In this document: in pieces, positions 2,119 through 56,666 of the stretch
How positions within the stretch are numbered: the stretch's first letter is position 1
Layout of the letters: every line of letters begins with the position of its first letter
Assembly (NCBI GenBank): GCA_043815665.1
Contig: JBDRIT010000025.1
Span: 67,487 to 131,486, forward strand
Source: Pseudomonadota bacterium
GTDB taxonomy: Bacteria > Myxococcota_A > UBA9042 > CAIXZC01
Direction: 5' to 3'
Length of the DNA stretch: 64,000 nt
Notes under the pieces: generated by a model
Seen by the model: only the letters and a program-made list of their open reading frames with translations
What the model was told of the DNA's origin: nothing
The model's database searches: none
Translations under genes and position numbers: made by a program

Positions 2119-2622
2119 ATGAAGCTCCTGGACCGACATACCCTGTTCAAGCGCGGCTTCGACGCGGTGCTGATCATCGCCGTCATCTACGCGCTCCTCC
2201 TCGCCACCGGGATCATCCGACGCGGCGGACGCTTCGAGGAGGGCCGTTCTGCGCCGGACTTCCAGGTGCAGAGCCTCCGGGACGGCAAGACCTACGGGCT
2301 GTCCGATTTCTCGGGCAAGACCCTCGTGATGACCTTCTTCTCCACCACCTGCCCCTCGTGCAAGCGGGAGCTCCCGGAGCTCCACGCGATGAAGGACGAA
2401 GTCGGGGACGAGGTGGAGTTCCTCATCGTCACCCACGACAACCCCCTGAAGGTCAGGGCCTACATGAAGTCCCAGGATCTCGACTTCCATGTCGCACACG
2501 ACAACGGCGGCACCCACGACGCCTACGCGGTGGACACCATCCCCTACAGCGTCGTCATCACCCCCGACGGAAGCATCAAGGCCGACGTGATCGGCGCGCT
2601 CCGGATGACCGACATCCTGTAG
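2119..2622 (+). CDS. TlpA/ResA-like thiol-disulfide oxidoreductase (thioredoxin fold, CPSC active site), membrane anchored
   Basis: 167 aa with an N-terminal TM segment. KTLVMTFFSTTCPSCKRELPEL matches the redoxin WCxxC region. A GGAGGAGG RBS precedes the ATG. Confidence 0.85.
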   Translation: MKLLDRHTLFKRGFDAVLIIAVIYALLLATGIIRRGGRFEEGRSAPDFQVQSLRDGKTYGLSDFSGKTLVMTFFSTTCPSCKRELPELHAMKDEVGDEVEFLIVTHDNPLKVRAYMKSQDLDFHVAHDNGGTHDAYAVDTIPYSVVITPDGSIKADVIGALRMTDIL

Positions 2623-3292: not shown

Positions 3293-5050
3293 TCACCGGC
3301 CGGTGCCCTCGCTCTCCTCCAGCCGGGTCCCCGTGAGGGGGCGGTAGCGGTTGATGGGGAGGATCTCATACCCCTCGAGGCGGCGGGACATCACGGCGAC
3401 GTTGTCCTCGTGCCACAGAGGCAGGAGCGGGAGCTCCGCGGCCAGGATCTCCTGGATGCGCCGGTAGTACCGGATCCGATCCTCCCGCGTCGGCGTGCGT
3501 CTCCCAAGGTCCAGCAGGCAGTCCACCTCGGGGTCCGTGAAGAAGCTCCGGTTCCCCGTGGTGAAGGGCAGGGTCCCCCCCGCGTCCACGATCCCGTGGT
3601 ACTCCCCGGCGCGGGCCTCCACCCACGGCACCCAGCGCTCCTCGCACTCTGCAGCGAAGGGTCCCTGAATGTCCTTGTATCCCGGCGGCAGGAAGCGCCG
3701 ATCCAGGCGGCCGTACTCCGTGTCCCCGATCCCCCCGGCCGGGACCGGGGTCCCCTGGGAGTGAAAGAGCCAGCGCAGGATGTCCGGGTCGATCACCTCG
3801 GGCACCTGGAGCACGTAGAGATCGAAGTTGCCCTGGCGGACGTCGGAGAGGAGGGTGGACAGCTCCGTGGGCACGGTCTCCACCTCCACCCCCACCGCGG
3901 CCAGCTGGTCCGCGAGGATCCGACCCACCGCGGTGCGGAACCTGTCCGTGGTGACCTTCAACGTAAGGGTCATGCGGATCCCTGTCTCCGGATCCCTGGG
4001 AATCCCGGCCTGGTCCAGGAGACGCTCGGCGCCTTCAACATCGTAGGGCGGCGGCTCGATGGCCCCGTGGAAGGCCCAGTGGAGGGGAGGCAGGATCCCC
4101 GCGGCCAGCCGGGCGCGCCCGTGGTACATGTGCGTAACGATCCCCCGCCGATCCAGGGCCAGCGCGAGGGCCTTTCGCACGTCCCGCCGGTCCAGGGGCG
4201 AGCGGGTGAGGTTCATGGCCATGTAGGTGGTGCAGGACGCCGGCCCGGCTTCGATGCGGAGCCCGGGCTCGTCCTGGAGGCTCCGGATCAGGGGAGGGGA
4301 GAGGTTGTTCACCGCGAGATCCGCGCTGCCGGCGAGGACCGAGAGCATCCGGGTCGCCTCGTCCCGGATCACCCGCGCCACGAGCCACCGTGCCGGCGGC
4401 TTGGGGCCGTGGTACTCCGGATTCCGCTCCAGGGTCACCTTCACGTCCCCGTACCGTGACTCGTATCGATAGGGCCCCGTTCCCACGTAGGCGGTCAGCC
4501 GCTGGGGCGGCTCCGTGCCCTCCAGGAGGTGGGCGGGCACCAGACCGATGGCGAGGTCCAGGGCGAAGAGCGCGTCCGGGTCCTTCAGCTCGAAGTGGAT
4601 CCGACGGTCTCCCTCGGCCCAGACCCGCGCAATCTTCTTCCTGAGATCTCCGGAGAAGGGGGACCCCAGGGAGGGGTCCAGGAGGGTCCTCCAGGTGTAC
4701 ACAGCGTCGTGCGCCCGCACCGGCACGCCGTCGTGCCAGAAGAGCCCCTCCCGGAGCGTCACGATCCAGTGGGTGCAGTCCCGAGGGCCCTCTTCGCAGG
4801 CCGGCTCCACGCTCTGCGCGAGGTCGGGTATCGGGGTGAGGTCCGGCGTCTCCACGGTGGTGAGGCCCGCGAAGATCAGCTTCGAGATCTTGGTGGAACT
4901 CGAGTCCGAGACGAAGCGCGGATCCAGATCCCGCGGGGGCGTCTCCAGGAGCAGGACGATCCGCTCCTCCCGCTCCCCAGGGTCCCTCGGCTCCGCCTGA
5001 CAGGCGACCAGGCAGAGGACCAGGAGGACGTGGAGGGACGACTTCGTCAC
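3293..5050 (-). CDS. ABC transporter substrate-binding lipoprotein, family 5 (peptide/nickel, DppA/OppA-like)
   Basis: C-terminal two thirds align to the SBP_bac_5 architecture. Probable GTG start gives VTKSSLHVLLVLCLVACQAEP, which has a lipobox. The longer ORF-track N-terminus is low-complexity Arg/Gly and is probably not translated. Confidence 0.8.
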   Translation of the reverse strand: MTKSSLHVLLVLCLVACQAEPRDPGEREERIVLLLETPPRDLDPRFVSDSSSTKISKLIFAGLTTVETPDLTPIPDLAQSVEPACEEGPRDCTHWIVTLREGLFWHDGVPVRAHDAVYTWRTLLDPSLGSPFSGDLRKKIARVWAEGDRRIHFELKDPDALFALDLAIGLVPAHLLEGTEPPQRLTAYVGTGPYRYESRYGDVKVTLERNPEYHGPKPPARWLVARVIRDEATRMLSVLAGSADLAVNNLSPPLIRSLQDEPGLRIEAGPASCTTYMAMNLTRSPLDRRDVRKALALALDRRGIVTHMYHGRARLAAGILPPLHWAFHGAIEPPPYDVEGAERLLDQAGIPRDPETGIRMTLTLKVTTDRFRTAVGRILADQLAAVGVEVETVPTELSTLLSDVRQGNFDLYVLQVPEVIDPDILRWLFHSQGTPVPAGGIGDTEYGRLDRRFLPPGYKDIQGPFAAECEERWVPWVEARAGEYHGIVDAGGTLPFTTGNRSFFTDPEVDCLLDLGRRTPTREDRIRYYRRIQEILAAELPLLPLWHEDNVAVMSRRLEGYEILPINRYRPLTGTRLEESEGTGR

Positions 5051-6552
5051 TAGAACGTGGCGTAGGTCTCTTGCTTGGCGAGCTCTTCGAGGAACGTCTC
5101 CAGATTCTCGGGGCTGGCGGCCATGGTGAGGTCCTTGATGCGGTCGAGGGTCTCGACGATCTCGGCGAAGATCACGGCCCGGTTGAGCATCTCGACGCTG
5201 TACTGTGCGTAGAGCTGGGCCACCATGGGCTCCATGACCGGTCGGATGTTGAGCTGGACCAGGTCGCCGAGGTTGGCGACCTTCTTGTCGCCGGTCTCGT
5301 CCAGGTACCGCTTGACCTTCACCTCGTGCCAGCGCTTGACCTCCTGCTCCGTGATCTTCAGGTGGACCTGCGGGGCGAGGACGAAGCCTTTGATCTCGGC
5401 TTCCTTGATGATGTCCGCGAGGATCTGCTCCACGACGTAGCTGTCGAACTGCTCCTCGCCCTCGGGGACCTCCTCGCACTTGGGCACCTTGATGTCCAGA
5501 TCCTGGCCGAACATCTCCTTGAAGGTCTGGTAGGTGAACTTGTCCTCGACCTTCTTCTTCTCCTCGGGCTCACCGCTCATCTCGACCAGCGCGCCCTTGA
5601 TGTCCTCCTGGCCTTCCTTCCGCGGGGCCCAGATGACCAGCTCCGTCTTGATGCCCGTGGGGGGCTCCGGGCTCCATTGGAATCCGTAGAGGAGGGTGAG
5701 GTTGTCCCGGAGGTCGTCCAGGGCCCGCCGCAGGCGGTTGGCCGCGGCCATGTAGTCTACGACCTTGTACGCGATCTCAGGGTGGAAGACCCGGTCCCCG
5801 AAGATCCCGTGAGGGGACATGTCCGCAACGCCGGTATCGACCTTCTCGAGCATCTTGATCAGCGGCTTCACGAGCTCGAGCTGCTTCTCCACCTTCTGGT
5901 ACTCGGCGAGCTGCGCCAGCATCGTGGGGTCGCCGGTCTCGAGGACCGGGATCAGGTTGCCCAGGGCGTTGATGTTGTCGTTGTACCAGACCAGGTATTC
6001 GTCCCGGAACTTCTGGATCGCCTCGACCCGGGCGGCGAGCTTCTGGCCCGTAGGATCGGTCTGGGGCTCGAAGAAGTAGGTCTTCAGGGTCTTCGCCTGG
6101 GTGACCCCGGCGTTGTGCAGGGAGCGGAGCCCGAGGTCACGACCGAACTGCATCCCGAGCCAGAGCGCTGCGCCAAATCCGATGATGGCGACGATGGACA
6201 CGACGAGGAACAGGCCCTTGGGCTTCGTGACCTTTCCGGTGTCGAGGTCATCCATGCTCACGGACTCCGTGACCTTCCCCCCGGCGCCGAAGTCCAGCTT
6301 GAAGTCGTCCGTGGAGATCTTCTGTGGATCAGCGCCGGAACCGGTGTCTTCTGTGGAAGGCCTCGTCTGGGCCCCGGTCTTCTTTGCGTCCTTCAGGCCC
6401 AGCCGGGCGCGCAAGGCGTCCAGATCCTTGCCTTTGTCCTTCGGCGTCTCCCCGCCCTCGATGCGCTCGTCGGTCTTGTCGTGGTCCACTCGGTCCTCCC
6501 GGGTTCCGCGGCCCAAGAAAGGGCACCAAAATTCGGAACTAGAGATTAACAC
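5050..6552 (-). CDS. hypothetical membrane-anchored protein (Lys-rich N-terminus, one TM, large exported domain)
   Basis: 500-aa ORF with high GC3. TM segment is LFLVVSIVAIIGFGAALWLGM. Start codon is uncertain: GTG at 6552 or internal ATGs. Confidence 0.6.
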   Translation of the reverse strand: MLISSSEFWCPFLGRGTREDRVDHDKTDERIEGGETPKDKGKDLDALRARLGLKDAKKTGAQTRPSTEDTGSGADPQKISTDDFKLDFGAGGKVTESVSMDDLDTGKVTKPKGLFLVVSIVAIIGFGAALWLGMQFGRDLGLRSLHNAGVTQAKTLKTYFFEPQTDPTGQKLAARVEAIQKFRDEYLVWYNDNINALGNLIPVLETGDPTMLAQLAEYQKVEKQLELVKPLIKMLEKVDTGVADMSPHGIFGDRVFHPEIAYKVVDYMAAANRLRRALDDLRDNLTLLYGFQWSPEPPTGIKTELVIWAPRKEGQEDIKGALVEMSGEPEEKKKVEDKFTYQTFKEMFGQDLDIKVPKCEEVPEGEEQFDSYVVEQILADIIKEAEIKGFVLAPQVHLKITEQEVKRWHEVKVKRYLDETGDKKVANLGDLVQLNIRPVMEPMVAQLYAQYSVEMLNRAVIFAEIVETLDRIKDLTMAASPENLETFLEELAKQETYATF

Positions 6553-12060: not shown

Positions 12061-12288
12061 TCAGCGCGCCAGTTCGTCCTCGAAGTACTGGATGATCGCC
12101 CGGAGCTGGGCCTCGTGCTGCTCCTCCTGCCCGGCCATCTCCTCGAAGAGGCGACGGGCCATCTCGCCGGGGGCGCGCTTCGCCGCGGCGAGGTAGCGAT
12201 CCCGGGCCTCCCGCTCCCGTGGGATGGCGAGGGAGGCGACCTCGATCATGTAGCGCAGCTCCCGGGCCCGTGGGTTGTCGTCGCGCAT
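12061..12288 (-). CDS. small hypothetical protein (possibly ferritin/rubrerythrin-like helical)
   Basis: 75 aa, helical, E/R-rich with EEMAGQEEQHEAQLRAI. Sits immediately upstream of the CA-like gene. Confidence 0.4.
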   Translation of the reverse strand: MRDDNPRARELRYMIEVASLAIPREREARDRYLAAAKRAPGEMARRLFEEMAGQEEQHEAQLRAIIQYFEDELAR

Positions 12289-12297
12289 GCCGTCTCC

Positions 12298-12978
12298 TCA
12301 GGAGGCCGGGAAGGTGATGCGGCCGCCGACCATCCCCAGCCCGAGGACCACGGGCAGGTGGAGCGCCAGCACGACGTCGTAGGCCACCCCGCCCCCCGCG
12401 AAGCGGAGCCCGAGGGCCACCGCCCCCAGGGACAGCAGCAGGAAGGAGAGGCCCATCTTCCACCCGAAGAGGGGGGTGATCCGCCCGCCGTACTGGTACC
12501 GCCAGTCCATGAGCCCGGACAGGATCGACGCAGGCGCCATGGCGAGACCGATCACCAGGTTGATCAGGGCCGCGGTCTCCAGGGCATCGGAGCCCGCGAG
12601 CCGCCCGACCAGGTTCAGGACCGCAGCCACCGCGCAGAGCGCGATGGGGAAGTGCACCGAGGCCGGATGGGCGTGGAGCCTGTAGGCCAGCGCAGCCAGA
12701 GGCGGCACCGGCTCCGGCTCCACCACGGGGACCGTCACCGGATCCCGGACCACCCCGACCCGGACCAGGCGCTCCAGGCGCTCCTTCGGGTGGGGCGCCA
12801 TGGTGATCTCGCGGCTCAGGTCCGCCCCCGCGCTGTGGGCGCGGACGTGGCTGCCTCCGCGCCAGAGGGCGGACCCGCTCGCGTCGTACACCACCCCGTC
12901 CACGGCGACGTAGGCCGGGTGGCCGTCACGACCGTCGAAGTCCGCCAGCTCTTCCCGTGTGAAGATCCTCTCGTTCAT
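12298..12978 (-). CDS. cytochrome b5-like heme/steroid-binding domain fused to a 4-TM membrane domain
   Basis: N-terminal FTREELADFDGRDGHPAYVAVDGVVYDASGSALWRGGSH matches the cyt-b5-like fold. The C-terminal half is hydrophobic. Confidence 0.7.
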   Translation of the reverse strand: MNERIFTREELADFDGRDGHPAYVAVDGVVYDASGSALWRGGSHVRAHSAGADLSREITMAPHPKERLERLVRVGVVRDPVTVPVVEPEPVPPLAALAYRLHAHPASVHFPIALCAVAAVLNLVGRLAGSDALETAALINLVIGLAMAPASILSGLMDWRYQYGGRITPLFGWKMGLSFLLLSLGAVALGLRFAGGGVAYDVVLALHLPVVLGLGMVGGRITFPAS

Positions 12979-13083
12979 GGACGGAATCTACCACAGACAG
13001 CTTGTCCGTTGAAGCGCGGCGTTGACCTTGGTATACCCGTGTCACAGGATCGTGGGCCCATCCCTGATGACGAGGCGGAGACC

Positions 13084-14748
13084 ATGTCGGAACCCCTGAA
13101 GTTCAACGTCGCAGCCCACCCGCCCCGCATCACGCGGGACTTCCCCTCCGAGGAGTTCAGCGGTCCCAGGCTGGACGCGTTCAACGAACGCCACATCGAG
13201 GTGCTCGCGCGCTACGGCATCCAGGCAGTGTCCATCCGACGCATACGCATCGACGAGAAGACCAACGGCCGGTCGAACCTGGGCGTGTTCCGCAACAAGC
13301 AGCTCAACCAGAGCGTGCTCCTCGCCGCAGGCCTGCCCGCAATCGCCGTGGCGCTCACCGGGCGCGGCGCGTTCGCCGCGCTGCCGAAGGCGGAGCAGAC
13401 CCCGGACCGCAAGGAGGCCCTCAAGCGGTCCAACGACCGGGTCGCGGCCCTGGCCATGGGGGAGACCTTCCAGCACACCTGCGACGCCCTCGAGGCGGGC
13501 GAGGACGTCCTGATCTCCACGGCGATCACCGAGGGCGTCCGGGCCAAGCCCGGGTACGAGGCCGGCGGAAATCCCACCATCGCGGTGGGCGCGGTCTTTG
13601 GCAAGGCGGAGATCCGGGCCCGATACGGCCGCCCGATGCCCCGGGACGTGACCCTGCTGTCCATGGGCAATGACGTCATCGACGGGACCACGAAGTCGGT
13701 CATGGGGACCCACAGCTCCCTCACATCGGTCTTCCTGAGCGAGTCGGGGGTGAAGCGCCACCTGCCGGACATCTATGTTCAACGTTGGGCCGCTGCGGTC
13801 CCCTTCGAGGAGTTCAATCCCCGGGACCTGGGCAGCGCGGACGTGGCCCGCCTCTTCGCGGATGCCTACGGGATCCCCGTAGAGCAGATGTCCGCGTTCT
13901 TCATCGACCGGCCCCGACACGTCCCGGCGATCGAGGCCCTCAACCGCATCGGGGTCTCCACACCCATGGACACGGACGGGGACCTCTTCCCCGGGGTCCT
14001 CCTGGGGGTCGAGGGGATCTCCTTCCCCGACGGCCGGGGGCTCATGTCCATGATCGGCGAGATCGGCGGCTCCGCGGAGTGGGCCGTGGCCGTCCTCCCC
14101 CTGGTCTGGCGTGGCGGCAACGCGCTGGGGATGCTCACCTCCCAGTCGAGCATCCAGCGGAAGGACCTGAGCCCGGAGGAGCTCTGGGCGGAGCGATTCC
14201 ACTACACCGCGGACGAGCTCCTGATGATCCAGGACGCCCGCTTCGAGCTGAAGCCCTGGTTCACCATCGAGGACATCATGGAGAACCCCTACGCGGGCGG
14301 CGTCTCCGCGTTCGGCGCGATCACGGACAACATCTACCTGCCCACGTTGAAGGGTGTCCGGGTGGACGAGGACGCGGGGCGGCTCTGCACCTCGGTGCTC
14401 ACGGTCAACTCCCTGGGCCTCGCGGACCAGTGGGACATCGAGTTCGAGGCCGCCGCCGGGGTCGGCGCCGTGCGGGACGCCATGCGGACCCCGAAGGAGC
14501 TGCTCCGGGGCCTCGACCAGGCCGGCATGGAGCGCGCCATCGGCGCCATGACCGACCACCCGACCCGTCGCGAGACCTTCCGGATCTTCTTCGGCAACGA
14601 ATACTACGGCGCGCTGGCGCACTCCGTGGGCCGGATGATGGTCCTCGATCGGACGGTCCGGTCCCTCATCGAGCGCGGCGCGCTGGAGCCCCTGGACACC
14701 ATGATCATCGCGGCGGCCAAGGCCGTGGTGCCCGACTGGTTCATCTGA
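13084..14748 (+). CDS. GlpX-like (class II fructose-1,6-bisphosphatase fold) family protein with ~200-aa C-terminal extension
   Basis: VIDGTTKSVMG aligns with the GlpX DPIDGT motif; DRPRH and GEIGGSAEWAVAV align with GlpX's KPRHD and GIGGAPEGVVSAA. The protein is 554 aa, against ~330 for GlpX. The leading part of the 877-aa ORF-track entry is antisense to real genes. Confidence 0.55.
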   Translation: MSEPLKFNVAAHPPRITRDFPSEEFSGPRLDAFNERHIEVLARYGIQAVSIRRIRIDEKTNGRSNLGVFRNKQLNQSVLLAAGLPAIAVALTGRGAFAALPKAEQTPDRKEALKRSNDRVAALAMGETFQHTCDALEAGEDVLISTAITEGVRAKPGYEAGGNPTIAVGAVFGKAEIRARYGRPMPRDVTLLSMGNDVIDGTTKSVMGTHSSLTSVFLSESGVKRHLPDIYVQRWAAAVPFEEFNPRDLGSADVARLFADAYGIPVEQMSAFFIDRPRHVPAIEALNRIGVSTPMDTDGDLFPGVLLGVEGISFPDGRGLMSMIGEIGGSAEWAVAVLPLVWRGGNALGMLTSQSSIQRKDLSPEELWAERFHYTADELLMIQDARFELKPWFTIEDIMENPYAGGVSAFGAITDNIYLPTLKGVRVDEDAGRLCTSVLTVNSLGLADQWDIEFEAAAGVGAVRDAMRTPKELLRGLDQAGMERAIGAMTDHPTRRETFRIFFGNEYYGALAHSVGRMMVLDRTVRSLIERGALEPLDTMIIAAAKAVVPDWFI

Positions 14749-14821
14749 TCCCCCTCCCCAGGGCGCCTGCGGGGCGCCCGCCCTCTTGTGGATTCCTCGA
14801 CCTTCTCGTAGAGTATTTCCC

Positions 14822-16282
14822 ATGAAAACGTCGCAACGAATCACCCTGGCGCTGCTCTTCACGGTCCTTTGCTCCGACGGGTGCATCCGGTCACGCTGCT
14901 ACCGCGACCGGGACTGCCCCGGCGGCCAGGTCTGCAACAGCGCCACCGGCGTCTGCGTCGTCCCGGACTGCATCGGTGACGACGCCTGCCTGGCGGGCCA
15001 GATCTGCCAGGCCAACGTCTGCGTGCCGGGCTGCCTCGGGGACGAGGACTGCGGCACGGCGAAGGTCTGCGTCGCGGGCCACTGCGTCCTCGAGACCTCC
15101 TCGGGGTCCGGCTGCATCTGCATCGCGGCGCCCTTGTTCTGCGCGCAGGACATCCACCCGGGCTCAACGACCTTCCAGTCCGAGATCTGCATGGGAGACA
15201 CCTCCCAGACCGCAAAGCTCCTCTTCTTCGGGAACACCGGGTGATTCCACTGCCGTCACCAGTTCGGTGACCTCTGGGACATGAAGGAGACGTTGCTGGC
15301 GGACGGGGTCGACAACGTCGAGCTCTGGTTCATCCAGATCGGGACCCAGGACAAGACGCCGGAGGAGGTCGAGGATCTCATCGGGGAGTACCCGACCACG
15401 GTCCTGGACGACGACCCCGAGCAGACCATCTGGACCGCCTTCGCGTCCACCTGGTACGAGGCGGTCCTCCTGGACCCGGAGGACTGCATCGTCGCGAAGT
15501 TCGGGCCCTTCACGACGTTCCCCCAGGATCCCGACGAGATCATCCCCCTGTGGAAGGGCGCCGCCCTCGGGACCCTCCCCTGTGACGAGCCCGAGCCCGG
15601 GCCGGAGTCCGGGGCCGAGCCCGCGCCCGACGTCTCCGAGCCGATGCCCGATGTCTTCGAGCACGACACCGTGGACGTCGTCGACATCCTCGACCTCGTG
15701 GACGCCATCGAAGATGTCCCCACGGACACGCTGGCGGACGTCCCCACGGACACCCCCGCGGATCTCCCCGGAGAGATCCCGGAGATCCCCCCCTGGTGGT
15801 GCCAGGTGGACGCGCCCCCGGCGCCCGTCGGCCCGGGGGATCCGCTGCCGTTCTTCACCTGCGTCGACATGAACCCCATGTCACCCACCGAAGGGGAGGT
15901 GGTCTCCAAGTCCTCCCTCAAGCAGAGGGTCTGGCTGGGATACGCCGGGAGTGGTGGCTGAGGCTTCTGCGTGCAGCAGGCTGCTGCGCTCGAAGACCTC
16001 GTGCTGGAGGCCCAGGCCCAGGGATGGGACGACCTGACCGCGGTGTTCCTCAACCAGGCCCAGGACGTAACCACCTTCGACTACCTGTCCACGGAGTTCG
16101 GCGGCCCCGCGGTCCAGGATCCCGATGACGGCAGCCTCTGGGCGGCCTTCGGGCTGGGCTACAACGGCGCGATGATCGTCGACCGGGACGGCGTGATGAC
16201 CGCGCTCTTCTCGACGCCATCGTTCCCCGATGACGCCGAGGCGATCTCCGCAGCCCTGCAGGAGGCCCTCGAGCAGCCGTGA
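14822..16282 (+). CDS. predicted selenoprotein: exported Cys-rich protein with two thioredoxin-fold (TlpA-like) domains, each with a UxxC active site (in-frame TGA at 15242-15244 and 15959-15961)
   Basis: Three ORF-track entries (14786-15244, 15281-15961, 15971-16282) share one frame and are separated only by TGA. FFGNTG-TGA-FHC and GYAGSGG-TGA-GFC each fall exactly on the WCxxC position of a redoxin fold. The rest of each fold continues after the TGA. A hairpin lies 9-10 nt after each TGA. Confidence 0.65.
15255..15271 (+). promoter_or_regulatory. candidate bacterial SECIS-like hairpin 1 (GTCACC-AGTTC-GGTGAC), 10 nt downstream of TGA 15242-15244
   Basis: Perfect 6-bp stem with a 5-nt loop containing GUU. 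The spacing is typical of bacterial SECIS apical hairpins. Confidence 0.45.
15971..15989 (+). promoter_or_regulatory. candidate bacterial SECIS-like hairpin 2 (GTGCAGCA-GGC-TGCTGCGC), 9 nt downstream of TGA 15959-15961
   Basis: 8-bp stem (one G.U pair) with a GGC loop. Confidence 0.45.
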
Positions 16283-17700
16283 GAACCAGCTTTACCTTCA
16301 TCCTCGTCCTCCTCCTGCTGGCACCCGCTGATGCCCTGGCCGAGGATTGCTGGGACGCGGCCCGCCCCTTCGCCGAGAAGAACGACTGGGCCGCGGTCGA
16401 GAAGACCCTGCGAGGCTTCCCGGCGCGGGACCGCGCCTGCCAGCTCCTCCTGGCCGAGGCCCAGATCCACCAGGGCAAGCACACCTGGGCCCTCCAGATC
16501 CTCCGACTCTTGGTGGAGGCGGACCCCCGGGACGCGGTGGCTCGGGGGCTCCTGGGCGCGGCGCTCCTGGGGATGGGGGACCACGAGAGCCTCCTCGAGG
16601 TGGCCAGGGAGCTGCCTCCGACCACGCCGGGGGATCCCTGGACCGGGATCCTGGAGCACCAGCGCGCGGCAGCGGAGCTCCGGACCGGAGACGCACACAC
16701 CGCCCGGCTTCGCCTGACCCGGGTTCTCCGTGAGCGCCCGCTGCATCCCTTCCGCGACGAGGCGAATCGGTTCCTGGGTCTGGCCTGGTGGTATGATTAC
16801 CGGGATCGGGGACAACCCACCCTGGACCTCGCCACGGGGTTCCAGTACGACTCCAACGCAGCCTTCGATCCGGACGACCCGCTGCTCTCCGTGGTCGAGG
16901 GGGATCCGGCGGCCTGGCGGGGCTGGCTGTCTGCGTCGGGGCGGATCCCGCTGGTCTGGGAGCCCCGCACGGTGGTCACGGCGAACGCGTCCGCGTACCG
17001 GAGCTTCCACAGCACGGCGATCGCGAACGACTTCAACTACACGGACGTCTCCGGCGGGGCGACCTTGGTCCACCGCATGCTGTGGGGACAGGCGGACGCA
17101 TCCATCGAGGTCGCGTGGCTCAGCCGCATCGGCCTCCTCGACGGCGGGCCCCTCCTGCCGGAGCCCAGGATCTTCGCGTTCCTGGAGAACCACTCCTTCG
17201 CTGCGGGGTTCCGGGTGGAGCCCGCCGCCGGCGTCCTGCTGGGGTTCACGGGGGTCGGGGGCTACCAACGCTTCGCGGAGCTGGCCAGGAACAACCTGGG
17301 GGGCGGGGGCCTCCTGTCCCTCCTCTGGTCGGTCGGAGTCGTCGACCTGGCGTTCACCGGCTCCGGGATCTACCGGGAGGCCGAGAGCGAGGGGTACGAT
17401 CGGTATGAGCTGGCCACCCGCCTCACGGTGAGCCTCCGCCTGCCCTGGGAGGTCCGTCTCGGCGCCTCCGGCGGACTGGGGCACGACGACTACCTCGACT
17501 CCGCAGGCTGGTTCGAGGCCGGCAGCCGGCGGCGGGACACCCGCTGGGACGCCCGGGCCACCCTGGGTCGCCCCATCGCAGCCGGCTTCGGCGTCGAGGT
17601 GCATGGGGGCTACGGGGAGCGACGCTCCACCGTGGGCGCGTTCGCCTACGATCACTGGACCGCAGGGCTCACCCTGAGCTGGAGTCATGCATGGGACTGA
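16279..17700 (+). CDS. TPR-containing putative outer-membrane beta-barrel protein
   Basis: GTG start overlaps the upstream stop (GTGA). Signal peptide RTSFTFILVLLLLAPADALA. N-terminal TPR-like helices. The C-terminal ~300 aa have alternating-hydrophobic beta-strand character and end ...GLTLSWSHAWD with a terminal aromatic. Confidence 0.6.
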   Translation: MRTSFTFILVLLLLAPADALAEDCWDAARPFAEKNDWAAVEKTLRGFPARDRACQLLLAEAQIHQGKHTWALQILRLLVEADPRDAVARGLLGAALLGMGDHESLLEVARELPPTTPGDPWTGILEHQRAAAELRTGDAHTARLRLTRVLRERPLHPFRDEANRFLGLAWWYDYRDRGQPTLDLATGFQYDSNAAFDPDDPLLSVVEGDPAAWRGWLSASGRIPLVWEPRTVVTANASAYRSFHSTAIANDFNYTDVSGGATLVHRMLWGQADASIEVAWLSRIGLLDGGPLLPEPRIFAFLENHSFAAGFRVEPAAGVLLGFTGVGGYQRFAELARNNLGGGGLLSLLWSVGVVDLAFTGSGIYREAESEGYDRYELATRLTVSLRLPWEVRLGASGGLGHDDYLDSAGWFEAGSRRRDTRWDARATLGRPIAAGFGVEVHGGYGERRSTVGAFAYDHWTAGLTLSWSHAWD

Positions 17701-18053
17701 GAACGATCCTCGTCATCTCCATCGCGCTCCTCGCCACCGCCTGCGCCCACGCGCCGCGATACAGCGGTGAGCCAGCGAACCGCCAGGAGGCCTTCCTCCT
17801 CGAGCACCTCCCCTCCCCCGCACCGACCCGTGACGACGAGGCCTGGGCCCGGAGCGCCAAGGCGTTCCTGGCCCGCGCCGCCGGCCGCGGCCTCGAAGGC
17901 ACCGTGGACATCTCCGCCGCCTGCGGCTGCGTGGACAGCGGCGACGGCGGCGGCAGCGGCGGCGGCCCCGGTGGGCCGGTGGGGCCGGACATCGAGGGGC
18001 CGTCCAAGGAAGCGACGATCCGCGTGAAGGTCGTGCTGCCCGACCCCTCCTGA
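17691..18053 (+). CDS. small lipoprotein
   Basis: MGLRTILVISIALLATAC lipobox-like sequence. Gly-rich C-terminus. Overlaps the upstream gene by 10 nt. Confidence 0.55.
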   Translation: MGLRTILVISIALLATACAHAPRYSGEPANRQEAFLLEHLPSPAPTRDDEAWARSAKAFLARAAGRGLEGTVDISAACGCVDSGDGGGSGGGPGGPVGPDIEGPSKEATIRVKVVLPDPS

Positions 18054-26340: not shown

Positions 26341-29334
26341 CTATTCATTCGGGAGCGTCGGAGCGAGGTGGATCTCCACCCGCCGGTTCCTGGCCCGTCC
26401 CTCGTCCGTGTCCGCAGGATCGACGAGGTCTGCGTCGCTGACCCCCACAACCTCGAGGATCTCGTCGGCGAGACCTGCACGCTGGAGGGCGGCCCCTACG
26501 GACCGGGCGCGCTCGAGGGAGATCTCGCGCTTCGACTCCGGCGTCCCCACCTGATCCGAATGCCCTTCGATCCGCAGGCGGAGCGGCGGCAGGCTACGGA
26601 GAAGGTCCACCGCGCTCCTGAGGGCCTCCACGGTCTCCCCGGGGAGGCTCACGGAGCTTCGCGGGAAGGGGACCGGGCGGAGGGCGCCCTCCAGATCCAC
26701 CATCCCCGGAGGGATCCGCGCCGGCGGGTCGGGCTCGGGGCAGCCGTCACCGTCCCGGTCCCCGTCGGGGTCCTCGGCCTCATCCTGGCAGAGATCGAAG
26801 GGATCCGTGATCCCGTCGCCATCCCTGTCCGGGTGCTGTGCGTCCCGGTCTTCCACACCCCAGTCCGCCTCCGGCGCCTCCGGAGGCGGGCGCCCCCCGA
26901 AGTGCGTCCCCCAGGAGACCCCCAGGCGGCCCTCGGCGCGGTCCCCGAAGGCCGTGTCCGTGATCCAGTGCGGGGTCCACCGATACTCCACCCGCGCCTC
27001 CCTGCTGTTGGCGTCCGGGGGCGCGTTGTGGTGGTAGACCGTCTCCAGGTAGAGCTCCCGTGTCACCTGCTTCCCCACGGTGAGGATCGGGTTCGCGGCG
27101 GACCTCCCGAACCCCAGGCCGAGGTTGTCCACGCCGATGTTGTCGAAGAGCTGCCGCTTGAGATCCGGGTTGTGGTACCGCTCGACCATGGAGGCGACCT
27201 GTCGCCGGACCTCACCGTCGCGAGAATCAACCACGTCCACCCGCCCCAGGATCAGCAGGGTCATGATCTGGAACTCCGGGAGCGGGGGGCTCGACAGGAG
27301 GACCAGGTCGGGCCGGTGCCCGGGCCCGGCGACGCGGACCAGGACGTGGGTCCGCTGCACCCGCCCCCGGGCGACCACGTCCAGCACCGGCTCCAGGGGA
27401 CGCGCCTCCCGCTCAGCAGACGCGCGCCTGAGGTGGCCCTCCGCGAGGGTGATGCGCCCGGCCCGAAGTTCGAAGCGGTTGTCGAAGAGGTCGATCCAGC
27501 CCCCGGGGGTGAGGTCCAGGCCACCGTGGACCCGCACCAAGGGCCCCGTCCGCTCCGTGCGGAGGGTCCCCGTGAGCTCCAGGGACACCCCCGGCCCCCG
27601 CACCTTGACGGGCGTACCCAGCGCCAGCACCAGCCTCCGGATCTCCGACCCATCCGACCCCTCTGCCGAGGCGCCGTCCTCGCGGGAGCCGACCACGCGC
27701 ACCGCAGGGTTCGTCGGAATGGCGCGGGGCTCCGGCACCTCGTCGTCGGTGATCCGGACCGCGCCCTTCACGACCGTCACGGTGAGGGTCCGCTCACCCG
27801 GGCGTGCGGTGAGACCGAGGTCCGCGACTGCAGTCAGGAGGACCACGGGCAACCCCTCCCGCAGCACCGGGAACCGCTGGAGTTTGAGCGCGGCCGTCCC
27901 GGTCAGGGTCGACGCGCTCCAGAGGGGTGCGTCCCCGGGGGTCCCCGCCGGGGTCGGATCCCAGGACAGGGCGCCGCGCCCCAGGACCTCCCCGGGCGCG
28001 GCCAAGGCAACCAGCTCGTCAATCTCCAGGGTCGTCCCGTGCACCCTCGCCCGCGCTCGGACCCCCCGCAGCCGCCGCCCGACGGGCAGCAGGTCGAAGG
28101 CTGCGTCCTCCACGGAGAGGGTGCCATCGAGCACAGGCGCCCCCAGAGTCCCGGACAAGCGGACCCCGCCGTGGACGCTGCCGCGGCCCCCGTCCAGGCC
28201 AGCCCCCAGGAAGGGGACCACCCGCCCGGCGGGGAGGTCCGCGGACAAGGTCCCATGCACCGGCGCGTCGACCAGGGACACCCCGGCCCTCCGGAGCCCG
28301 AGGAGAGGCATCCCGGCGGTCAGGTCGAGGTCGATCTCGCCCTCCCCCAGGGTGGCCCTGAGACGCTGGGTGTCCGGACCCGCCTCGAAGTGCGCGTCCA
28401 GGTCGACCCGGTCGCTGCCGGCCGCCACCGCCCCCTGCAGGGTCGCATCGATCCGGAGATCGTCCAGGGTTCCGGCGCCCCGCAGGGTGAAGCCCAGGAG
28501 GAAGTCGAGGTCCGGAGGAGCGCGCCAGAAGGGGCGGAGGAGGGACGGATCGATGACCCCCGCGGTCACGGAGATCCGGTGCTCCTCGTGGTCCCGCCAG
28601 GTCAGGCCGCCCCCGAGGAGGTCGAGACCGACAGGGAGCTCCCCGTCCAGGGTCAGGGCGGGGTCGTCCTCGGAGCCCCACAGCAGGTGCACCCGGGACC
28701 GGCCGGCGCTGTGCTGGACACGGGCCTCCACCGCACCGAGGACCGCGCCCCCCCAGGTTGCGTCCGCGACGCTCAGATCCAGCTCCAGGGCCGGCGCCCG
28801 GGGGTCCCCCGAGAGGCGGATCTCGCCCTGCAAGGTGCCGCCCAGGGGGGCCCAGCCCAGGACCTCGCCGAGGGCCCCGAGATCCACGCCATCCACGCGC
28901 AGCGCCGCGGCCAGGGGCCCTGGACCCAGCGAGATCGTTCCCTGGGACAGCTCCACTGCGGCCTCGAAGGTGGCGTCGAGGGCCAGGCGGCCGATGCCGC
29001 CCTCCACCACGGCGGACAGCTCCCCGGGGGAGCCGGCCGGGGACCAGAGCTCCAGGGAGAGCGCGCCCAGGGGCACCCCCCCCACGTGGAGCTCCTCCAC
29101 CCTGCAGCGGAGGAGCCGATGCATGCCGGCGTCGTCCATGACCACGGCGAGTCGGACCTCCACCACCCCGTCGACTGCCTCGAGGGCCGGCCAGTCACTG
29201 AGCAGGCTCGCCAGGGAGCTGCGCCAGGACAGGTGCAGGTCCGGATCCTCCGCCACGACCTCCCGCTGGGGCGCACCCCAGGCCACCGCCGGCAGGAGCA
29301 GACAGGCGACCAGGAGAATCTGCCGGGCGCTCAA
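26341..29334 (-). CDS. TamB-like translocation/assembly module protein (DUF490) with TSP3-type Asp repeats and C-terminal OmpA-like peptidoglycan-binding domain
   Basis: N-terminal signal-anchor. A long beta-rich body. DUF490-like ...VTRELYLETVYHH..., then DRDGDGITDPFD...DPDGDRDGDG, then OmpA_C (LRIEGHSDQVG...NRRVEI). Confidence 0.7.
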   Translation of the reverse strand: MSARQILLVACLLLPAVAWGAPQREVVAEDPDLHLSWRSSLASLLSDWPALEAVDGVVEVRLAVVMDDAGMHRLLRCRVEELHVGGVPLGALSLELWSPAGSPGELSAVVEGGIGRLALDATFEAAVELSQGTISLGPGPLAAALRVDGVDLGALGEVLGWAPLGGTLQGEIRLSGDPRAPALELDLSVADATWGGAVLGAVEARVQHSAGRSRVHLLWGSEDDPALTLDGELPVGLDLLGGGLTWRDHEEHRISVTAGVIDPSLLRPFWRAPPDLDFLLGFTLRGAGTLDDLRIDATLQGAVAAGSDRVDLDAHFEAGPDTQRLRATLGEGEIDLDLTAGMPLLGLRRAGVSLVDAPVHGTLSADLPAGRVVPFLGAGLDGGRGSVHGGVRLSGTLGAPVLDGTLSVEDAAFDLLPVGRRLRGVRARARVHGTTLEIDELVALAAPGEVLGRGALSWDPTPAGTPGDAPLWSASTLTGTAALKLQRFPVLREGLPVVLLTAVADLGLTARPGERTLTVTVVKGAVRITDDEVPEPRAIPTNPAVRVVGSREDGASAEGSDGSEIRRLVLALGTPVKVRGPGVSLELTGTLRTERTGPLVRVHGGLDLTPGGWIDLFDNRFELRAGRITLAEGHLRRASAEREARPLEPVLDVVARGRVQRTHVLVRVAGPGHRPDLVLLSSPPLPEFQIMTLLILGRVDVVDSRDGEVRRQVASMVERYHNPDLKRQLFDNIGVDNLGLGFGRSAANPILTVGKQVTRELYLETVYHHNAPPDANSREARVEYRWTPHWITDTAFGDRAEGRLGVSWGTHFGGRPPPEAPEADWGVEDRDAQHPDRDGDGITDPFDLCQDEAEDPDGDRDGDGCPEPDPPARIPPGMVDLEGALRPVPFPRSSVSLPGETVEALRSAVDLLRSLPPLRLRIEGHSDQVGTPESKREISLERARSVGAALQRAGLADEILEVVGVSDADLVDPADTDEGRARNRRVEIHLAPTLPNE

Positions 29335-31253: not shown

Positions 31254-31260
31254 GACGATC

Positions 31261-43666: not shown

Positions 43667-43691
43667 ACGCCTGCGGGTCTCCTCGTATAAT
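43663..43691 (+). promoter_or_regulatory. near-consensus sigma70-type promoter TTGAAC-N17-TATAAT
   Basis: TTGAAC at 43663-43668 (overlapping the nadE stop), a 17-nt spacer, then TATAAT at 43686-43691. About 40 nt upstream of the Cys-rich gene start. Confidence 0.5.
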
Positions 43692-43732
43692 GCCTTCGCT
43701 CCGATCCGGGAGACATCTGCACGGGGGTCTGC

Positions 43733-53525: not shown

Positions 53526-53711
53526 CTCCTCACTGATCGCCGCCCTTCGGGACCTCGGGGGCTGTCGCGAATCCCTCGACGTTTCGTCTTCATGAAATAA
53601 ACTGTGCATTTTTCGCTTGTCGTTCCAGATGCGCAGTGTTAAAAAGCCCCCAGAGCCAGTGATGGCAACGCATAACGCAATTGGGTCATTCAAACCGGAA
53701 GGGGGACTACC

Positions 53712-56524: not shown

Positions 56525-56666
56525 CTCGATCCCTCCTTGAAACAAGGCTTGGATACCATACACGAACTCCACCTTCCAATCGTTCATTTTCTCCATGCAT
56601 TTCAGGAAAATATGTGCTAACTTCCCGCTTCCGCGAGGGAGAGGCCCATTGAATTCGGAGACGCCG

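What the first reader, a model, noticed from the sequence alone, without database searches (positions are those of the whole stretch)
14822..16282. Double-selenocysteine redoxin: exported Cys-rich protein with two TlpA-like thioredoxin-fold domains, each with TGA at the CxxC position (UxxC)
Three ORF-track entries (14786-15244, 15281-15961, 15971-16282) share one frame and are separated only by TGA codons at 15242 and 15959.

When read through, both TGAs fall exactly where a thioredoxin-fold protein has its first active-site Cys:
- The first junction reads ...SQTAKLLFFGNTG-U-FHCRHQFGDLWDMKETLLADGVDNVELWFIQIG...AVLLDPEDCIVAKFGP.
- The second junction reads ...PFFTCVDMNPMSPTEGEVVSKSSLKQRVWLGYAGSGG-U-GFCVQQAAALEDLVLEAQAQGWDDLTAVFLNQ...YNGAMIVDRDGVMTALF.
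- Both align residue for residue with the TlpA/ResA pattern: x-D-x-x-G-K-x-V-x-L-S-D-x-x-G-K-x-V-L-L-N-F-W-A-x-W-C-x-x-C ... L ... G-V-x-V-x-x-V ... F-P-V-L-x-D ... G-x-P-x-T-F-x-I-D-x-x-G.

The ORFs downstream of each TGA would, on their own, lack beta-1 and the whole active site. The upstream ORFs would end one residue before it. Sec read-through is therefore the parsimonious reading. UxxC is the established selenoprotein version of CxxC.

A Cys paralogue (CPSC) of the same fold sits at 2119-2622. Two Sec residues in one exported, envelope-targeted polypeptide is unusual.
Basis: partly seen in the sequence, partly recalled or inferred. Interest (0 to 1): 0.92.

Follow-up and report, generated by a model that had tools for sequence, protein, structure and literature searches.

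The report
Two-selenocysteine tandem redoxin lipoprotein gene
One gene, split in the public annotation into three "hypothetical proteins", most likely encodes an exported protein with two thioredoxin-like domains that each carry selenocysteine at the active site; it is a rare two-selenocysteine variant of a kind of bacterial selenoprotein that is already known.

Summary
Positions 14822-16282 (+) form one reading frame with in-frame TGA codons at 15242 and 15959. Coding signal (GC3 about 0.92) runs unbroken across both.

Independent assemblies at 60-97% identity keep both TGAs. dN/dS is 0.1-0.3 in every segment, so error, pseudogene and three separate genes are excluded.

Both TGAs fall on the first Cys of a CxxC motif in two paralogous ResA/TlpA-like thioredoxin-fold domains. 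Each TGA is followed by a hairpin that meets the published bacterial SECIS constraints.

- **Second hairpin:** it shows strong covariation across 25 distinct homologues.
- **First hairpin:** it is invariant apart from one compensatory change, and it is absent where homologues have Cys.

In the wider family, which is rare and has no curated model of its own, selenocysteine in domain 2 is universal. Domain 1 normally has Cys (CxHC). Selenocysteine in domain 1, and therefore the two-selenocysteine protein, is specific to the window's clade, probably Myxococcota.

The closest curated family is NCBIfam NF053656 (TUGYCR thioredoxin-fold selenoprotein). Each domain scores below its cut-off.

The gene is the first of a conserved three-gene operon. 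The selenocysteine machinery of the genome could not be checked.

Verdict: a real feature and a new variant of a known kind, of moderate interest.

The parts
14822..16282 (+). Complete selenoprotein gene: 486 codons plus stop, with Sec at codons 141 and 380. The source record annotates it as three hypothetical proteins (ABIK09_02630, 02635, 02640).
   Evidence: Single frame with continuous GC3 of 0.92. Orthologues are collinear over residues 1-486. Source annotation.
14822..14884 (+). Signal peptide ending in a lipobox-like ..DG-C21. Probable lipoprotein signal; Cys21 would be the lipidated residue.
   Evidence: Hydrophobic N-terminus followed by an invariant G-C-I-x-S-x-C in the family alignment. 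Inferred; no signal-peptide predictor was available.
14885..15112 (+). Cys-rich repeat module (CxxDxDCPxGxxC type).
   Evidence: Weak hits to DUF7107, Dickkopf_N and TIGR04201 Myxo_Cys_RPT. The homologue model is strand-rich with pLDDT above 90 here.
15113..15583 (+). Redoxin domain 1 (ResA/TlpA-like thioredoxin fold) with active site U141-F-H-C144.
   Evidence: NF053656 at 54 bits and sub-threshold AhpC-TSA and Thioredoxin_8 hits. hhalign to the window's TlpA-like protein. AlphaFold and Foldseek on Cys homologue P0011.
15242..15244 (+). First Sec codon (UGA, residue 141). It corresponds to the first Cys of CxHC in the Cys-form homologues.
   Evidence: TGA is conserved in L001, L029, L031, L032, L035, L037 and L038. 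TGC or TGT is at this position in L002-L015.
15255..15271 (+). bSECIS-type hairpin 1: GUCACC-AGUUC-GGUGAC, with 16 nt between the UGA and the loop.
   Evidence: -8.0 kcal/mol and meets the bSECIS constraints. Invariant in 8 orthologues, with one compensatory A-U to U-A change in L031. Built with the gene's only CGT codon and one of its three GGT codons. Absent in the Cys-form loci.
15584..15787 (+). Acidic, Pro-rich linker that varies in length.
   Evidence: Highest dN and dS of the five segments, plus indels between orthologues. pLDDT below 50 in the homologue model.
15788..16279 (+). Redoxin domain 2, a paralogue of domain 1, with active site U380-G-F-C383.
   Evidence: hhalign of domain 1 against domain 2 gives 98.8% probability with U1 aligned to U2. 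NF053656 at 54 bits over profile positions 3-143 of 146.
15959..15961 (+). Second Sec codon (UGA, residue 380).
   Evidence: TGA is at this position in all 26 loci in which the motif was located.
15971..15989 (+). bSECIS-type hairpin 2: GUGCAGCA-GGC-UGCUGCGC (equivalently, loop A-GGC-U).
   Evidence: -11.1 kcal/mol and meets the bSECIS constraints. 92% of cells are paired. Pairs 14-30 and 17-27 each show six pair types. 0 of 500 shuffles reach the observed covariation score. It holds both of the gene's only GCT codons.
16279..17700 (+). Second operon gene: a 473-aa protein with a signal peptide, TPR repeats and a C-terminal half of unknown fold. Its GTG start overlaps the selenoprotein stop (GTGA).
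   Evidence: The same gene follows the selenoprotein gene in L002, L005, L010, L014, L017, L025, L029 and L035.
17691..18053 (+). Third operon gene: a 120-aa lipoprotein-like ORF with a conserved CGC motif.
   Evidence: It holds the same position in L029, L035 and L002.
2119..2622 (+). Ordinary Cys-type TlpA-like redoxin (CPSC). It is a distant relative used here as an internal reference, not part of the operon.
   Evidence: AhpC-TSA 1e-19 and Redoxin 2e-17. hhalign to domain 1 gives probability 88%.

Best explanation
Positions 14822-16282 are a single gene for an exported, probably lipid-anchored protein. It has a Cys-rich repeat module followed by two paralogous ResA/TlpA-like thioredoxin-fold domains.

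The attacking residue of each active site is selenocysteine, encoded by UGA: U141-F-H-C144 and U380-G-F-C383. Each UGA is recoded by its own bacterial SECIS hairpin, which lies inside the coding sequence 16-17 nt downstream. SelB with Sec-tRNA(Sec) would bind that hairpin.

Each domain would cycle between a selenol/thiol state and a selenenylsulfide state. The protein would therefore act as an extracytoplasmic thiol-disulfide oxidoreductase with two redox centres. It is made together with a TPR protein and a small CGC-motif lipoprotein from the same operon.

**Shown:**
- one frame under purifying selection;
- conserved TGAs at the CxxC position;
- the thioredoxin fold;
- SECIS-type hairpins, with covariation for the second.

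**Inferred:**
- actual Sec insertion;
- lipidation and export;
- the redox function and its direction;
- partnership with the operon proteins.
For: 1. **One frame.** The frame is single and GC3 stays at 0.92 across both TGAs.
2. **Rarity in the window.** Only 3 such TGAs exist in 64 kb on both strands.
3. **Conservation.** Both TGAs are kept in independent assemblies at 60-97% identity: L001/L033, L032, L035, L037 and L038. The three-ORF split in the JGI contig and in P0002 and P0041-P0045 points the same way.
4. **Selection.** dN/dS is 0.11-0.38 in all five segments at dS of about 0.5.
5. **Cys homologues.** They are uninterrupted through the domain-1 site (FFGSVGCSHCR). Every one of them then stops or reads TGA exactly at the domain-2 site. 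P0031 is a CGFC Cys form.
6. **Active-site position.** U1 aligns with U2 (hhalign 98.8%) and with the first Cys of CPSC in the window's TlpA-like protein. In the AlphaFold model of P0011 (pLDDT above 90 over residues 21-250) the equivalent Cys137 is the last loop residue before helix 138-153. The top Foldseek matches in the PDB are ResA, CcmG/DsbE, TlpA-like proteins and Etrx1/2, with target TM-scores of 0.7-0.8.
7. **Family homology.** NCBIfam NF053656, 'TUGYCR motif thioredoxin fold (seleno)protein', matches both domains at E of about 1e-14.
8. **SECIS constraints.** Both hairpins satisfy the four published bSECIS constraints (PMC13188914 Fig. 2; geometry and energy). Only 1.35% of all TGA trinucleotides in the window have this tight geometry.
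9. **Hairpin 2.** 92% of cells are paired, four pairs show double changes, and 0 of 500 shuffles reach the score.
10. **Hairpin 1.** It is invariant apart from one compensatory change. It uses rare T-ending codons and is missing in the Cys-form loci.
11. **Ordinary stop use.** TGA also serves as a normal stop in this genome: the upstream gene ends at 14746-14748 and this gene at 16280-16282. The genome therefore does not read TGA as a sense codon throughout.
Against: - The selenocysteine machinery (selA, selB, selC, selD) was not seen. The window has no tRNA, and no SelA/SelB/SelD domain turned up among the 42 window ORFs scanned; four longer ORFs (53676-53975, 57310-60471, 60288-63398, 63385-63999) and several low-signal stretches were not scanned. 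The rest of the genome could not be searched.
- Covariation support for hairpin 1 rests on a single compensatory event in five distinct sequences (103 of 500 shuffles do as well).
- A covariance model built from hairpin 2 scores the first site at only 7 bits.
- No Rfam family matches.
- All Pfam hits, and each single-domain NF053656 hit, fall below the curated thresholds.
- The cis-Pro typical of TlpA/ResA enzymes appears to be missing, so the chemistry may differ from classical thiol-disulfide exchange.
- There is no protein-level evidence.
Confidence: 0.82

Rival explanations
1. SelB-independent read-through. The two UGAs would be decoded by a near-cognate or suppressor tRNA (Trp, Cys or Arg), with the downstream hairpins acting only as general read-through stimulators. 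The protein would then contain no selenium.
For: The Sec machinery was not observed. Hairpin 1 has little covariation support. No Rfam SECIS family matches.
Against: Both UGAs sit exactly on the catalytic Cys of CxxC, which is Cys in homologues. That is the signature of a Sec/Cys pair. A Trp or Arg there would inactivate the site, and if Cys were intended a one-base change to TGC or TGT would be cheaper. Yet TGA is kept in 26 of 26 domain-2 loci. The hairpins fit the bSECIS geometry, including the G[G/U] loop motif. The closest curated family is a selenoprotein family.
Confidence: 0.06
2. Only the second UGA, the family-wide one, is read as Sec. The first UGA would be mainly a genuine or selenium-regulated stop, so the main product is the 140-residue Cys-rich lipoprotein and the full-length protein is minor.
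For: Sec in domain 1 is confined to one clade. Hairpin 1 is shorter (6 bp, -8.0 kcal/mol) and statistically weaker. UGA decoding by SelB competes with release factor 2 (established knowledge).
Against: The sequence after the first UGA is under purifying selection (dN/dS 0.27 for residues 142-254). That sequence completes a fold whose first strand lies before the UGA. L029/L030 have lost domain 2 but keep the Sec-containing domain 1 intact. This makes sense only if the first UGA is read through. The strongest synonymous-site conservation in the gene surrounds the first UGA.
Confidence: 0.07
3. The region holds three separate genes or a decaying pseudogene, or the TGAs are sequencing or assembly errors. 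This matches the current public annotation as three hypothetical proteins.
For: The NCBI record calls three ORFs: ABIK09_02630, 02635 and 02640. Gene callers on every related contig do the same.
Against: The same two TGAs recur in independent assemblies from different samples. dN/dS is well below 1 everywhere. The splits fall inside a thioredoxin fold, one residue before the active-site CxxC position. Cys-form homologues are continuous through the first site. The 36 nt between the first TGA and the next ATG (15245-15280) are coding-like and conserved.
Confidence: 0.02

Closest known systems
NCBIfam NF053656, redoxin_TUGYCR ('TUGYCR motif thioredoxin fold (seleno)protein')
   Same: Both domains are clearly homologous to it (E about 1e-14 each, covering most of the 146-position profile). 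They share the thioredoxin fold, with Sec in a U-G-aromatic-C motif. Metagenomic relatives read CT-U-GYC-Q.
   Different: Each single domain scores 52-72 bits against a curated cut-off of 100. This holds for the window and for every relative tested. The window protein passes at 101.5 bits only because its two domains add up. The window's motifs are TG-U-FHCR and GG-U-GFCV, not T-U-GYCR. The tandem architecture, the Cys-rich N-terminus and the operon are not implied by a domain model. No paper on this family was found.
ResA / TlpA / CcmG (DsbE) extracytoplasmic thiol-disulfide oxidoreductases, and pneumococcal surface lipoproteins Etrx1/Etrx2
   Same: They are the best structural matches of domain 1 (Foldseek E about 1e-7, target TM-score 0.7-0.8). 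The CxxC-type site sits at the N-terminus of helix alpha-1. They are also membrane-anchored and exported, and Etrx1/2 are lipoproteins too.
   Different: This protein has Sec instead of the first Cys. It has two domains in tandem and a DsbA-like His before the second Cys in domain 1 (x-H-C). The cis-Pro loop appears not to be conserved. Sequence similarity is too low for Pfam thresholds or for any PDB sequence hit.
Previously catalogued bacterial UxxC thioredoxin-fold selenoproteins (Prx-like thiol:disulfide oxidoreductase, thiol:disulfide interchange protein, thiol-disulfide isomerase-like protein, UGC-containing TlpA family, Redoxin family; Table 1 of PMC13188914)
   Same: The principle is the same: Sec replaces the first Cys of CxxC in a thioredoxin-fold oxidoreductase, with a bSECIS just downstream and Cys-form homologues in other organisms.
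   Different: Nearly all of those have one Sec; only the Prx-like entry is listed with 1-2. Here there are two catalytic Sec residues in two duplicated domains, each with its own SECIS.
Known bacterial multi-Sec proteins ('double selenoproteins', e.g. MbdU, MduS, methyltransferase/UXPK-star, HUGP/GUXX-star fusion; PMC13188914)
   Same: Two UGA-Sec codons lie in one bacterial ORF.
   Different: According to the names and motifs in that table, they are fusions of unlike modules or metal-binding CU/UxxU motifs. None is a tandem duplication of one redoxin domain in an exported lipoprotein.
Eukaryotic protein disulfide isomerase (two catalytic CGHC thioredoxin domains)
   Same: This is a functional analogy only: two catalytic thioredoxin-fold domains in one secretory-compartment protein, one of them with an x-H-C motif.
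   Different: There is no evidence of homology beyond the shared fold, the sites use Sec, and the context is a bacterial lipoprotein.

Membership tests
Bacterial selenoprotein (UGA-Sec) | In-frame UGA within a continuous, conserved coding frame | tested here: met
Bacterial selenoprotein (UGA-Sec) | Homologues carry Cys at the position aligned with the UGA | tested here: met
   Domain 1: TGC or TGT in L002-L015 and Cys in P0006-P0034. Domain 2 type: P0031 has CGFC.
Bacterial selenoprotein (UGA-Sec) | bSECIS hairpin just downstream: 3-9 nt loop with G in its first two positions, 4-16 bp stem, 16-37 nt spacing, MFE at or below -7.5 kcal/mol (PMC13188914 Fig. 2) | tested here: met
   Site 1: 6 bp, loop AGUUC, spacing 16, -8.0 kcal/mol. 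Site 2: 8 bp, loop GGC, spacing 17, -11.1 kcal/mol. Covariation is strong at site 2 and is one compensatory event at site 1.
Bacterial selenoprotein (UGA-Sec) | Genome encodes selA, selB, selD and tRNA-Sec | not testable with these tools
   None was found in the window ORFs scanned or in the fetched loci.
Bacterial selenoprotein (UGA-Sec) | Selenium is actually incorporated | not testable with these tools
   Requires 75Se labelling or mass spectrometry.
NCBIfam NF053656 redoxin_TUGYCR | Score at or above the curated cut-off (100 bits) | tested here: inconclusive
   The whole protein scores 101.5 bits, but only as the sum of two 54-bit domains. Every single domain of this family scores 52-72 bits.
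NCBIfam NF053656 redoxin_TUGYCR | T-U-G-Y-C-R active-site motif | tested here: not met
   The window has G-U-F-H-C-R and G-U-G-F-C-V. Relatives have T-U-G-[YGSFTA]-C-[QGVA].
TlpA/ResA/CcmG-type thiol-disulfide oxidoreductase | Thioredoxin fold with the extra elements of the ResA/CcmG class | tested here: met
   Shown for domain 1 through Cys homologue P0011: AlphaFold pLDDT above 90, Foldseek top hits ResA, CcmG and TlpA-like. Extended to domain 2 by hhalign at 98.8%. The window's own domains could not be folded because of the stop codons.
TlpA/ResA/CcmG-type thiol-disulfide oxidoreductase | C-x-x-C at the N-terminus of helix alpha-1 | tested here: met
   Present as U-x-x-C.
TlpA/ResA/CcmG-type thiol-disulfide oxidoreductase | Conserved cis-Pro loop facing the active site | tested here: not met
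   hhalign opens a gap opposite the 'IP' of the window's TlpA-like protein. By reading the sequences against the TlpA pattern, the position is Tyr in domain 1 and Asn in domain 2. This rests on alignment only.
TlpA/ResA/CcmG-type thiol-disulfide oxidoreductase | Pfam Redoxin, AhpC-TSA or Thioredoxin_8 hit above the gathering score | tested here: not met
   The best hit is 23.6 bits against a cut-off of 26.
Bacterial lipoprotein | Signal peptide with a lipobox ending in Cys | tested here: inconclusive
   The hydrophobic N-terminus and invariant G-C-I-x-S fit. The window has Asp at position -2, which is atypical. No predictor was available.
Slam-dependent surface lipoprotein system (considered because a TPR protein follows the lipoprotein gene) | Partner has a Slam TPR domain (PF24575) and a DUF560 barrel (PF04575) | tested here: not met
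   Only generic TPR hits up to E=10. The single-sequence model of the C-terminal half was unusable (pLDDT about 30).

The most novel reading that the evidence does not exclude
The operon encodes a previously unrecognised envelope redox system. It would consist of a lipid-anchored, PDI-like selenoenzyme, a dedicated TPR/outer-membrane partner and a small CGC-motif lipoprotein that serves as substrate or redox relay. In the selenoenzyme, a DsbA-like oxidising centre (U-x-H-C) and a thioredoxin-like centre (U-G-F-C) would work in tandem through selenenylsulfides.

The window clade would be a natural case in which the first centre was recently converted between Cys and Sec, along with gain or loss of a SECIS inside the coding sequence.
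Probability: 0.15. Interest if true: 0.75.

Novelty: new variant of a known kind. Interest (0 to 1): 0.55.

Why it matters
**Annotation.** A real 486-residue selenoprotein is filed in the public record as three hypothetical proteins. The same error recurs on every related contig. The whole family is rare, with 34 hits among 1.84 billion representative proteins, and no curated model captures it.

**Biology.** It adds a tandem-domain, two-selenocysteine, exported redoxin to the short list of bacterial proteins with more than one Sec.

**Evolution.** It offers a clean natural comparison for how a Sec codon and its SECIS arise together inside a coding sequence. Orthologous domain-1 sites are Cys without a hairpin in most lineages. 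In one clade they are Sec with a hairpin built from rare codons.

**Function.** The conserved operon, with a TPR protein and a CGC-motif lipoprotein, points to an uncharacterised envelope redox pathway in Myxococcota-like bacteria.

Tried and rejected
- The word-indexed protein search with the full read-through sequence found nothing. Its 8000-candidate list was probably taken up by matches to the low-complexity parts of the query.
- The first metagenome scan, using two very specific peptides, found nothing.
- The exhaustive search and the structure tool refuse sequences containing a stop or a substituted residue. I therefore used the post-Sec parts of both domains as a two-sequence profile, and folded a Cys-form homologue instead of the window protein.
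- The 17-sequence family alignment was too divergent for locus finding. A 9-sequence subset worked.
- PDB sequence searches with either domain, or with the domain-2 profile, gave no meaningful hits.
- Rfam gave nothing at gathering or permissive thresholds.
- A covariance model of the second SECIS does not significantly detect the first (7 bits, E=4). The two hairpins are therefore not sequence homologues.
- No tRNA was found in the window or in 37 loci.
- No promoter or terminator consensus was found around the operon.
- The look-up of the source contig through P0040 failed.
- The AFDB fold library was unavailable.

**Ideas rejected**
- A Slam-like translocon for the 473-aa partner has no Pfam, NCBIfam or PDB support beyond generic TPR. 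The single-sequence AlphaFold model failed for its C-terminal 300 residues.
- A third Sec site at 12300 on the minus strand is only two neighbouring genes in one frame.
- Genome-wide reassignment of TGA is excluded, because TGA terminates this gene and its neighbour.
Full report
**1. The observation**

The frame that starts at the ATG at 14822 runs to 16282 and contains two internal stops. Both are TGA, at 15242-15244 and 15959-15961.

GC content by codon position is 0.65/0.47/0.92 over the whole frame. It stays at that level in every 90-nt block across both TGAs, as in the flanking genes. This includes the 36 nt between the first TGA and the next ATG.

A scan of both strands of the 64 kb looked for in-frame TGAs with coding-like composition on both sides. 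It returns three sites. Two are these. The third (12300, minus strand) is a Cyt-b5/DUF2231 gene followed in the same frame by a small rubrerythrin-like gene.

**2. Not an error, a pseudogene or three genes**

One genome-collection scan found an orthologue in a Myxococcales MAG (L001, 76-78% identity, collinear over residues 1-486). Both TGAs are in the same places.

Further orthologues came from other samples: L032, L035/L036, L037, L038 and a JGI contig, plus the middle-ORF fragments P0002 and P0041-P0045. They show the same two TGAs or the same 140 + about 230 + 103 residue split. L031 keeps the first TGA, but its contig ends before domain 2.

Between the window and L001, dS is about 0.5. 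dN/dS is 0.30, 0.27, 0.38, 0.11 and 0.20 for the five segments before, between and after the TGAs. All parts are therefore under purifying selection as protein.

The source record is an NCBI MAG labelled 'Pseudomonadota bacterium'. It annotates the gene as three hypothetical proteins, ABIK09_02630, 02635 and 02640.

**3. What the protein is**

Pfam gives only sub-threshold hits: AhpC-TSA, Thioredoxin_8 and Redoxin for the domains, and DUF7107 and Dickkopf_N for the N-terminus.

NCBIfam gives a clear homology signal. NF053656, 'TUGYCR motif thioredoxin fold (seleno)protein', matches both halves at 54 bits each (E about 1e-14).

An exhaustive HMMER search was run against 1.84 billion representative proteins, using a profile of the two post-Sec segments. 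It found only 34 proteins. Eleven are 338-432 residue proteins with the same architecture:
- a signal peptide ending in G-C;
- Cys-rich repeats;
- redoxin domain 1;
- an acidic linker;
- the start of domain 2.

They differ from the window protein in two informative ways. Domain 1 has Cys (FFGSVGCSHCR). Ten of the eleven ORFs end at ...VWIAYFG[SA]CT and the eleventh (P0027) at ...FGSCG, in every case one residue before the window's second Sec.

Fetching DNA for 27 metagenomic relatives showed what follows. In every locus in which the site was located the sequence reads CT-TGA-G-x-C-[QGVA] and continues in frame through a complete domain. Counting the window, L001 and L032, that is 26 of 26 loci.

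Selenocysteine in domain 2 is therefore the rule for the family. Selenocysteine in domain 1 is confined to the window's clade. One relative, P0031, has the Cys form CGFC of the domain-2 type.

**4. The TGAs are at the catalytic position of a thioredoxin fold**

Profile-profile comparison shows that the two domains are paralogues (98.8% probability). U141 aligns with U380, and C144 with C383.

Domain 1 aligns with the window's own TlpA-like protein (2119-2622, CPSC) at 88% probability. U141 falls on the first Cys and C144 on the second.

The tools would not accept a sequence with a stop or a substitution. I therefore modelled the Cys-form homologue P0011 with a 32-sequence alignment. Mean pLDDT is 80, and it exceeds 90 over residues 21-250. 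Its Cys137, the equivalent of U141, is the last loop residue before helix 138-153, after strand 126-133. That is the canonical CxxC position.

Foldseek against the PDB returns ResA, CcmG/DsbE, TlpA-like proteins and the pneumococcal surface lipoprotein thioredoxins Etrx1/2. E is about 1e-7 and target TM-scores are 0.7-0.8.

The cis-Pro of the TlpA pattern appears to be missing. Reading the sequences against the pattern gives Tyr in domain 1 and Asn in domain 2, and hhalign opens a gap there for domain 1.

**5. SECIS elements**

In bacteria each Sec-UGA needs its own hairpin immediately downstream. The published consensus requires four things (PMC13188914):
- a 3-9 nt loop with G, usually followed by G or U, in its first two positions;
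- a 4-16 bp stem;
- 16-37 nt between the UGA and the loop;
- a minimum free energy at or below -7.5 kcal/mol.

| Site | Hairpin | Stem | Spacing | Energy |
|---|---|---|---|---|
| 1 (15255-15271) | GUCACC-AGUUC-GGUGAC | 6 bp | 16 nt | -8.0 kcal/mol |
| 2 (15971-15989) | GUGCAGCA-GGC-UGCUGCGC | 8 bp | 17 nt | -11.1 kcal/mol |

Both sites meet all four constraints. Only 1.35% of the 1329 TGA trinucleotides in the window have this tight geometry.

Hairpin 2 was tested on 25 distinct sequences. 92% of cells are paired. Pairs 14-30 and 17-27 each show six different pair types, and four pairs show double changes. None of 500 shuffles reaches the observed covariation score, and no slid register comes close to it.

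Hairpin 1 is invariant in eight orthologues, apart from one compensatory A-U to U-A change in L031. There, CAC became CUC together with a synonymous GGU to GGA change. That is too little for statistical support on its own. Three further observations back it:
- The hairpin contains the gene's only CGT codon and one of its three GGT codons. Hairpin 2 likewise holds both of the gene's only GCT codons.
- The strongest synonymous conservation in the gene lies around the first UGA.
- Loci with Cys at this site have no hairpin at the corresponding place, with 0-4 of 6 pairs formed.

A covariance model of hairpin 2 does not significantly find hairpin 1, and Rfam has no match. This agrees with the known diversity of bacterial SECIS elements.

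**6. Context**

The N-terminus is hydrophobic and ends in an invariant G-C-I-x-S motif. This suggests a lipoprotein signal peptide. That is an inference, and Asp at position -2 is atypical.

The stop of the gene overlaps the GTG start of a 473-residue protein with a signal peptide, TPR repeats and an uncharacterised C-terminal half. A 120-residue lipoprotein-like ORF with a conserved CGC motif follows.

The TPR gene follows the selenoprotein gene throughout the two-domain family; the small ORF was seen behind it in L002, L029/L030 and L035/L036. Relatives that carry a single C-terminal domain behind other Cys-rich modules lack both.

I considered a Slam-like surface-lipoprotein translocon. No support was found.

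In the window clade the operon lies between a glpX-type FBPase gene and transketolase.

**7. Mechanism**

The best-supported reading is an extracytoplasmic, membrane-anchored thiol-disulfide oxidoreductase with two selenol/thiol centres. Each centre would cycle through a selenenylsulfide.

Domain 1 has His before the second Cys (x-H-C), as in DsbA. Domain 2 has G-F-C, closer to thioredoxin or PDI motifs. The two centres may therefore differ in redox potential, which is an inference.

L029/L030 have lost the linker and domain 2 but keep the Sec-containing domain 1. Domain 1 is evidently functional on its own.

In domain 2 the window clade has lost two Cys residues together: the one at position -2 of U, and one about 45 residues downstream. 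They probably formed a disulfide.

**8. Comparison and novelty**

UxxC thioredoxin-fold selenoproteins are a well-known kind. A homologous curated family exists (NF053656), and bacterial proteins with 2-3 Sec are known though few.

Three things are new here:
- The family itself is uncurated and annotated as fragments. No single domain reaches the NF053656 cut-off.
- The tandem-domain lipoprotein architecture comes with a conserved operon.
- One clade carries a second catalytic Sec with its own SECIS.

I therefore rate it a new variant of a known kind.

**9. Limits**

The Sec machinery of the genome was not examined. No tRNA was found in the window or the fetched loci, and no SelA/SelB/SelD domain was found among the window ORFs scanned. 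No tool was left to search the rest of the MAG.

No protein-level data exist. The structure evidence for the window's own domains is indirect, since it rests on a Cys homologue and on profile alignments.

Noticed in passing
window 17691-18053 (+): The third operon gene encodes a 120-residue lipoprotein-like protein with a conserved AGRGLEG..D[IL]SA[AS]CGC.D motif (vicinal Cys-Gly-Cys). It shares 59% identity with L035 and 39% with the distant L002. It could be a substrate or redox partner of the selenoprotein.
   Followed up: partly
window 16279-17700 (+): A 473-residue protein with a signal peptide and TPR repeats, whose C-terminal 300 residues match no family. It is translationally coupled to the selenoprotein gene (GTGA overlap) and conserved across the two-domain family. 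A Slam-like role was considered but found no support.
   Followed up: partly
L029 1854-2684 and L030 191-1021: A natural deletion variant of the selenoprotein. The linker and domain 2 are gone, the Sec-containing domain 1 is intact, and the C-terminal tail (...MEQP) is retained. Synteny is unchanged.
   Followed up: partly
window 15950-15958 and about 16085-16093 (domain 2): Compared with all other family members, the window clade has lost two Cys residues together. SCT-U has become SGG-U, and G[LI]xxCS has become DYLS. This suggests the loss of a structural disulfide next to the active site.
   Followed up: no
window 12070-12987 (-): The Cyt-b5/DUF2231 membrane protein gene ends with a TGA (plus-strand 12298-12300). 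A small rubrerythrin-like ORF follows in the same frame. The pair mimics a read-through candidate but is two separate genes, and related contigs call it the same way.
   Followed up: yes
P0031 (protein from the exhaustive search): A 268-residue single-domain lipoprotein-like relative with the Cys form SSG-C-GFC-QNQAA of the domain-2 active site. It is the only Cys form of that domain type among the 34 hits.
   Followed up: no
L018, L019, L021, L027, L028 (metagenome loci): The same Sec-containing domain (CT-U-GxCG) also occurs as a single C-terminal domain. It sits behind long, different Cys-rich modules (CDDGDPCT-type repeats), and these loci lack the TPR partner gene.
   Followed up: no
window 13669-13723 (-): The covariance model built from the second SECIS gives a weak hit here (18 bits, E=0.0035), antisense to the glpX-like gene. 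It is probably chance.
   Followed up: no
window 26341-31457 (-): Adjacent genes for a TamB-like protein fused to an OmpA domain and for an Omp85/POTRA protein, which together look like an outer-membrane assembly module.
   Followed up: no
window 43691-46861 (+), 5050-6552 (-), 54788-56740 (-): Large ORFs of 500-1056 residues with a strong coding signal and no Pfam hit at E of 1e-4 or better.
   Followed up: no
window 14755-14783: A GC-rich inverted repeat (GGGCGCC-tgcgg-GGCGCCC) lies just after the glpX-like gene's stop and has no T-run. A similar repeat is present in L001. It may separate that gene from the selenoprotein operon.
   Followed up: no
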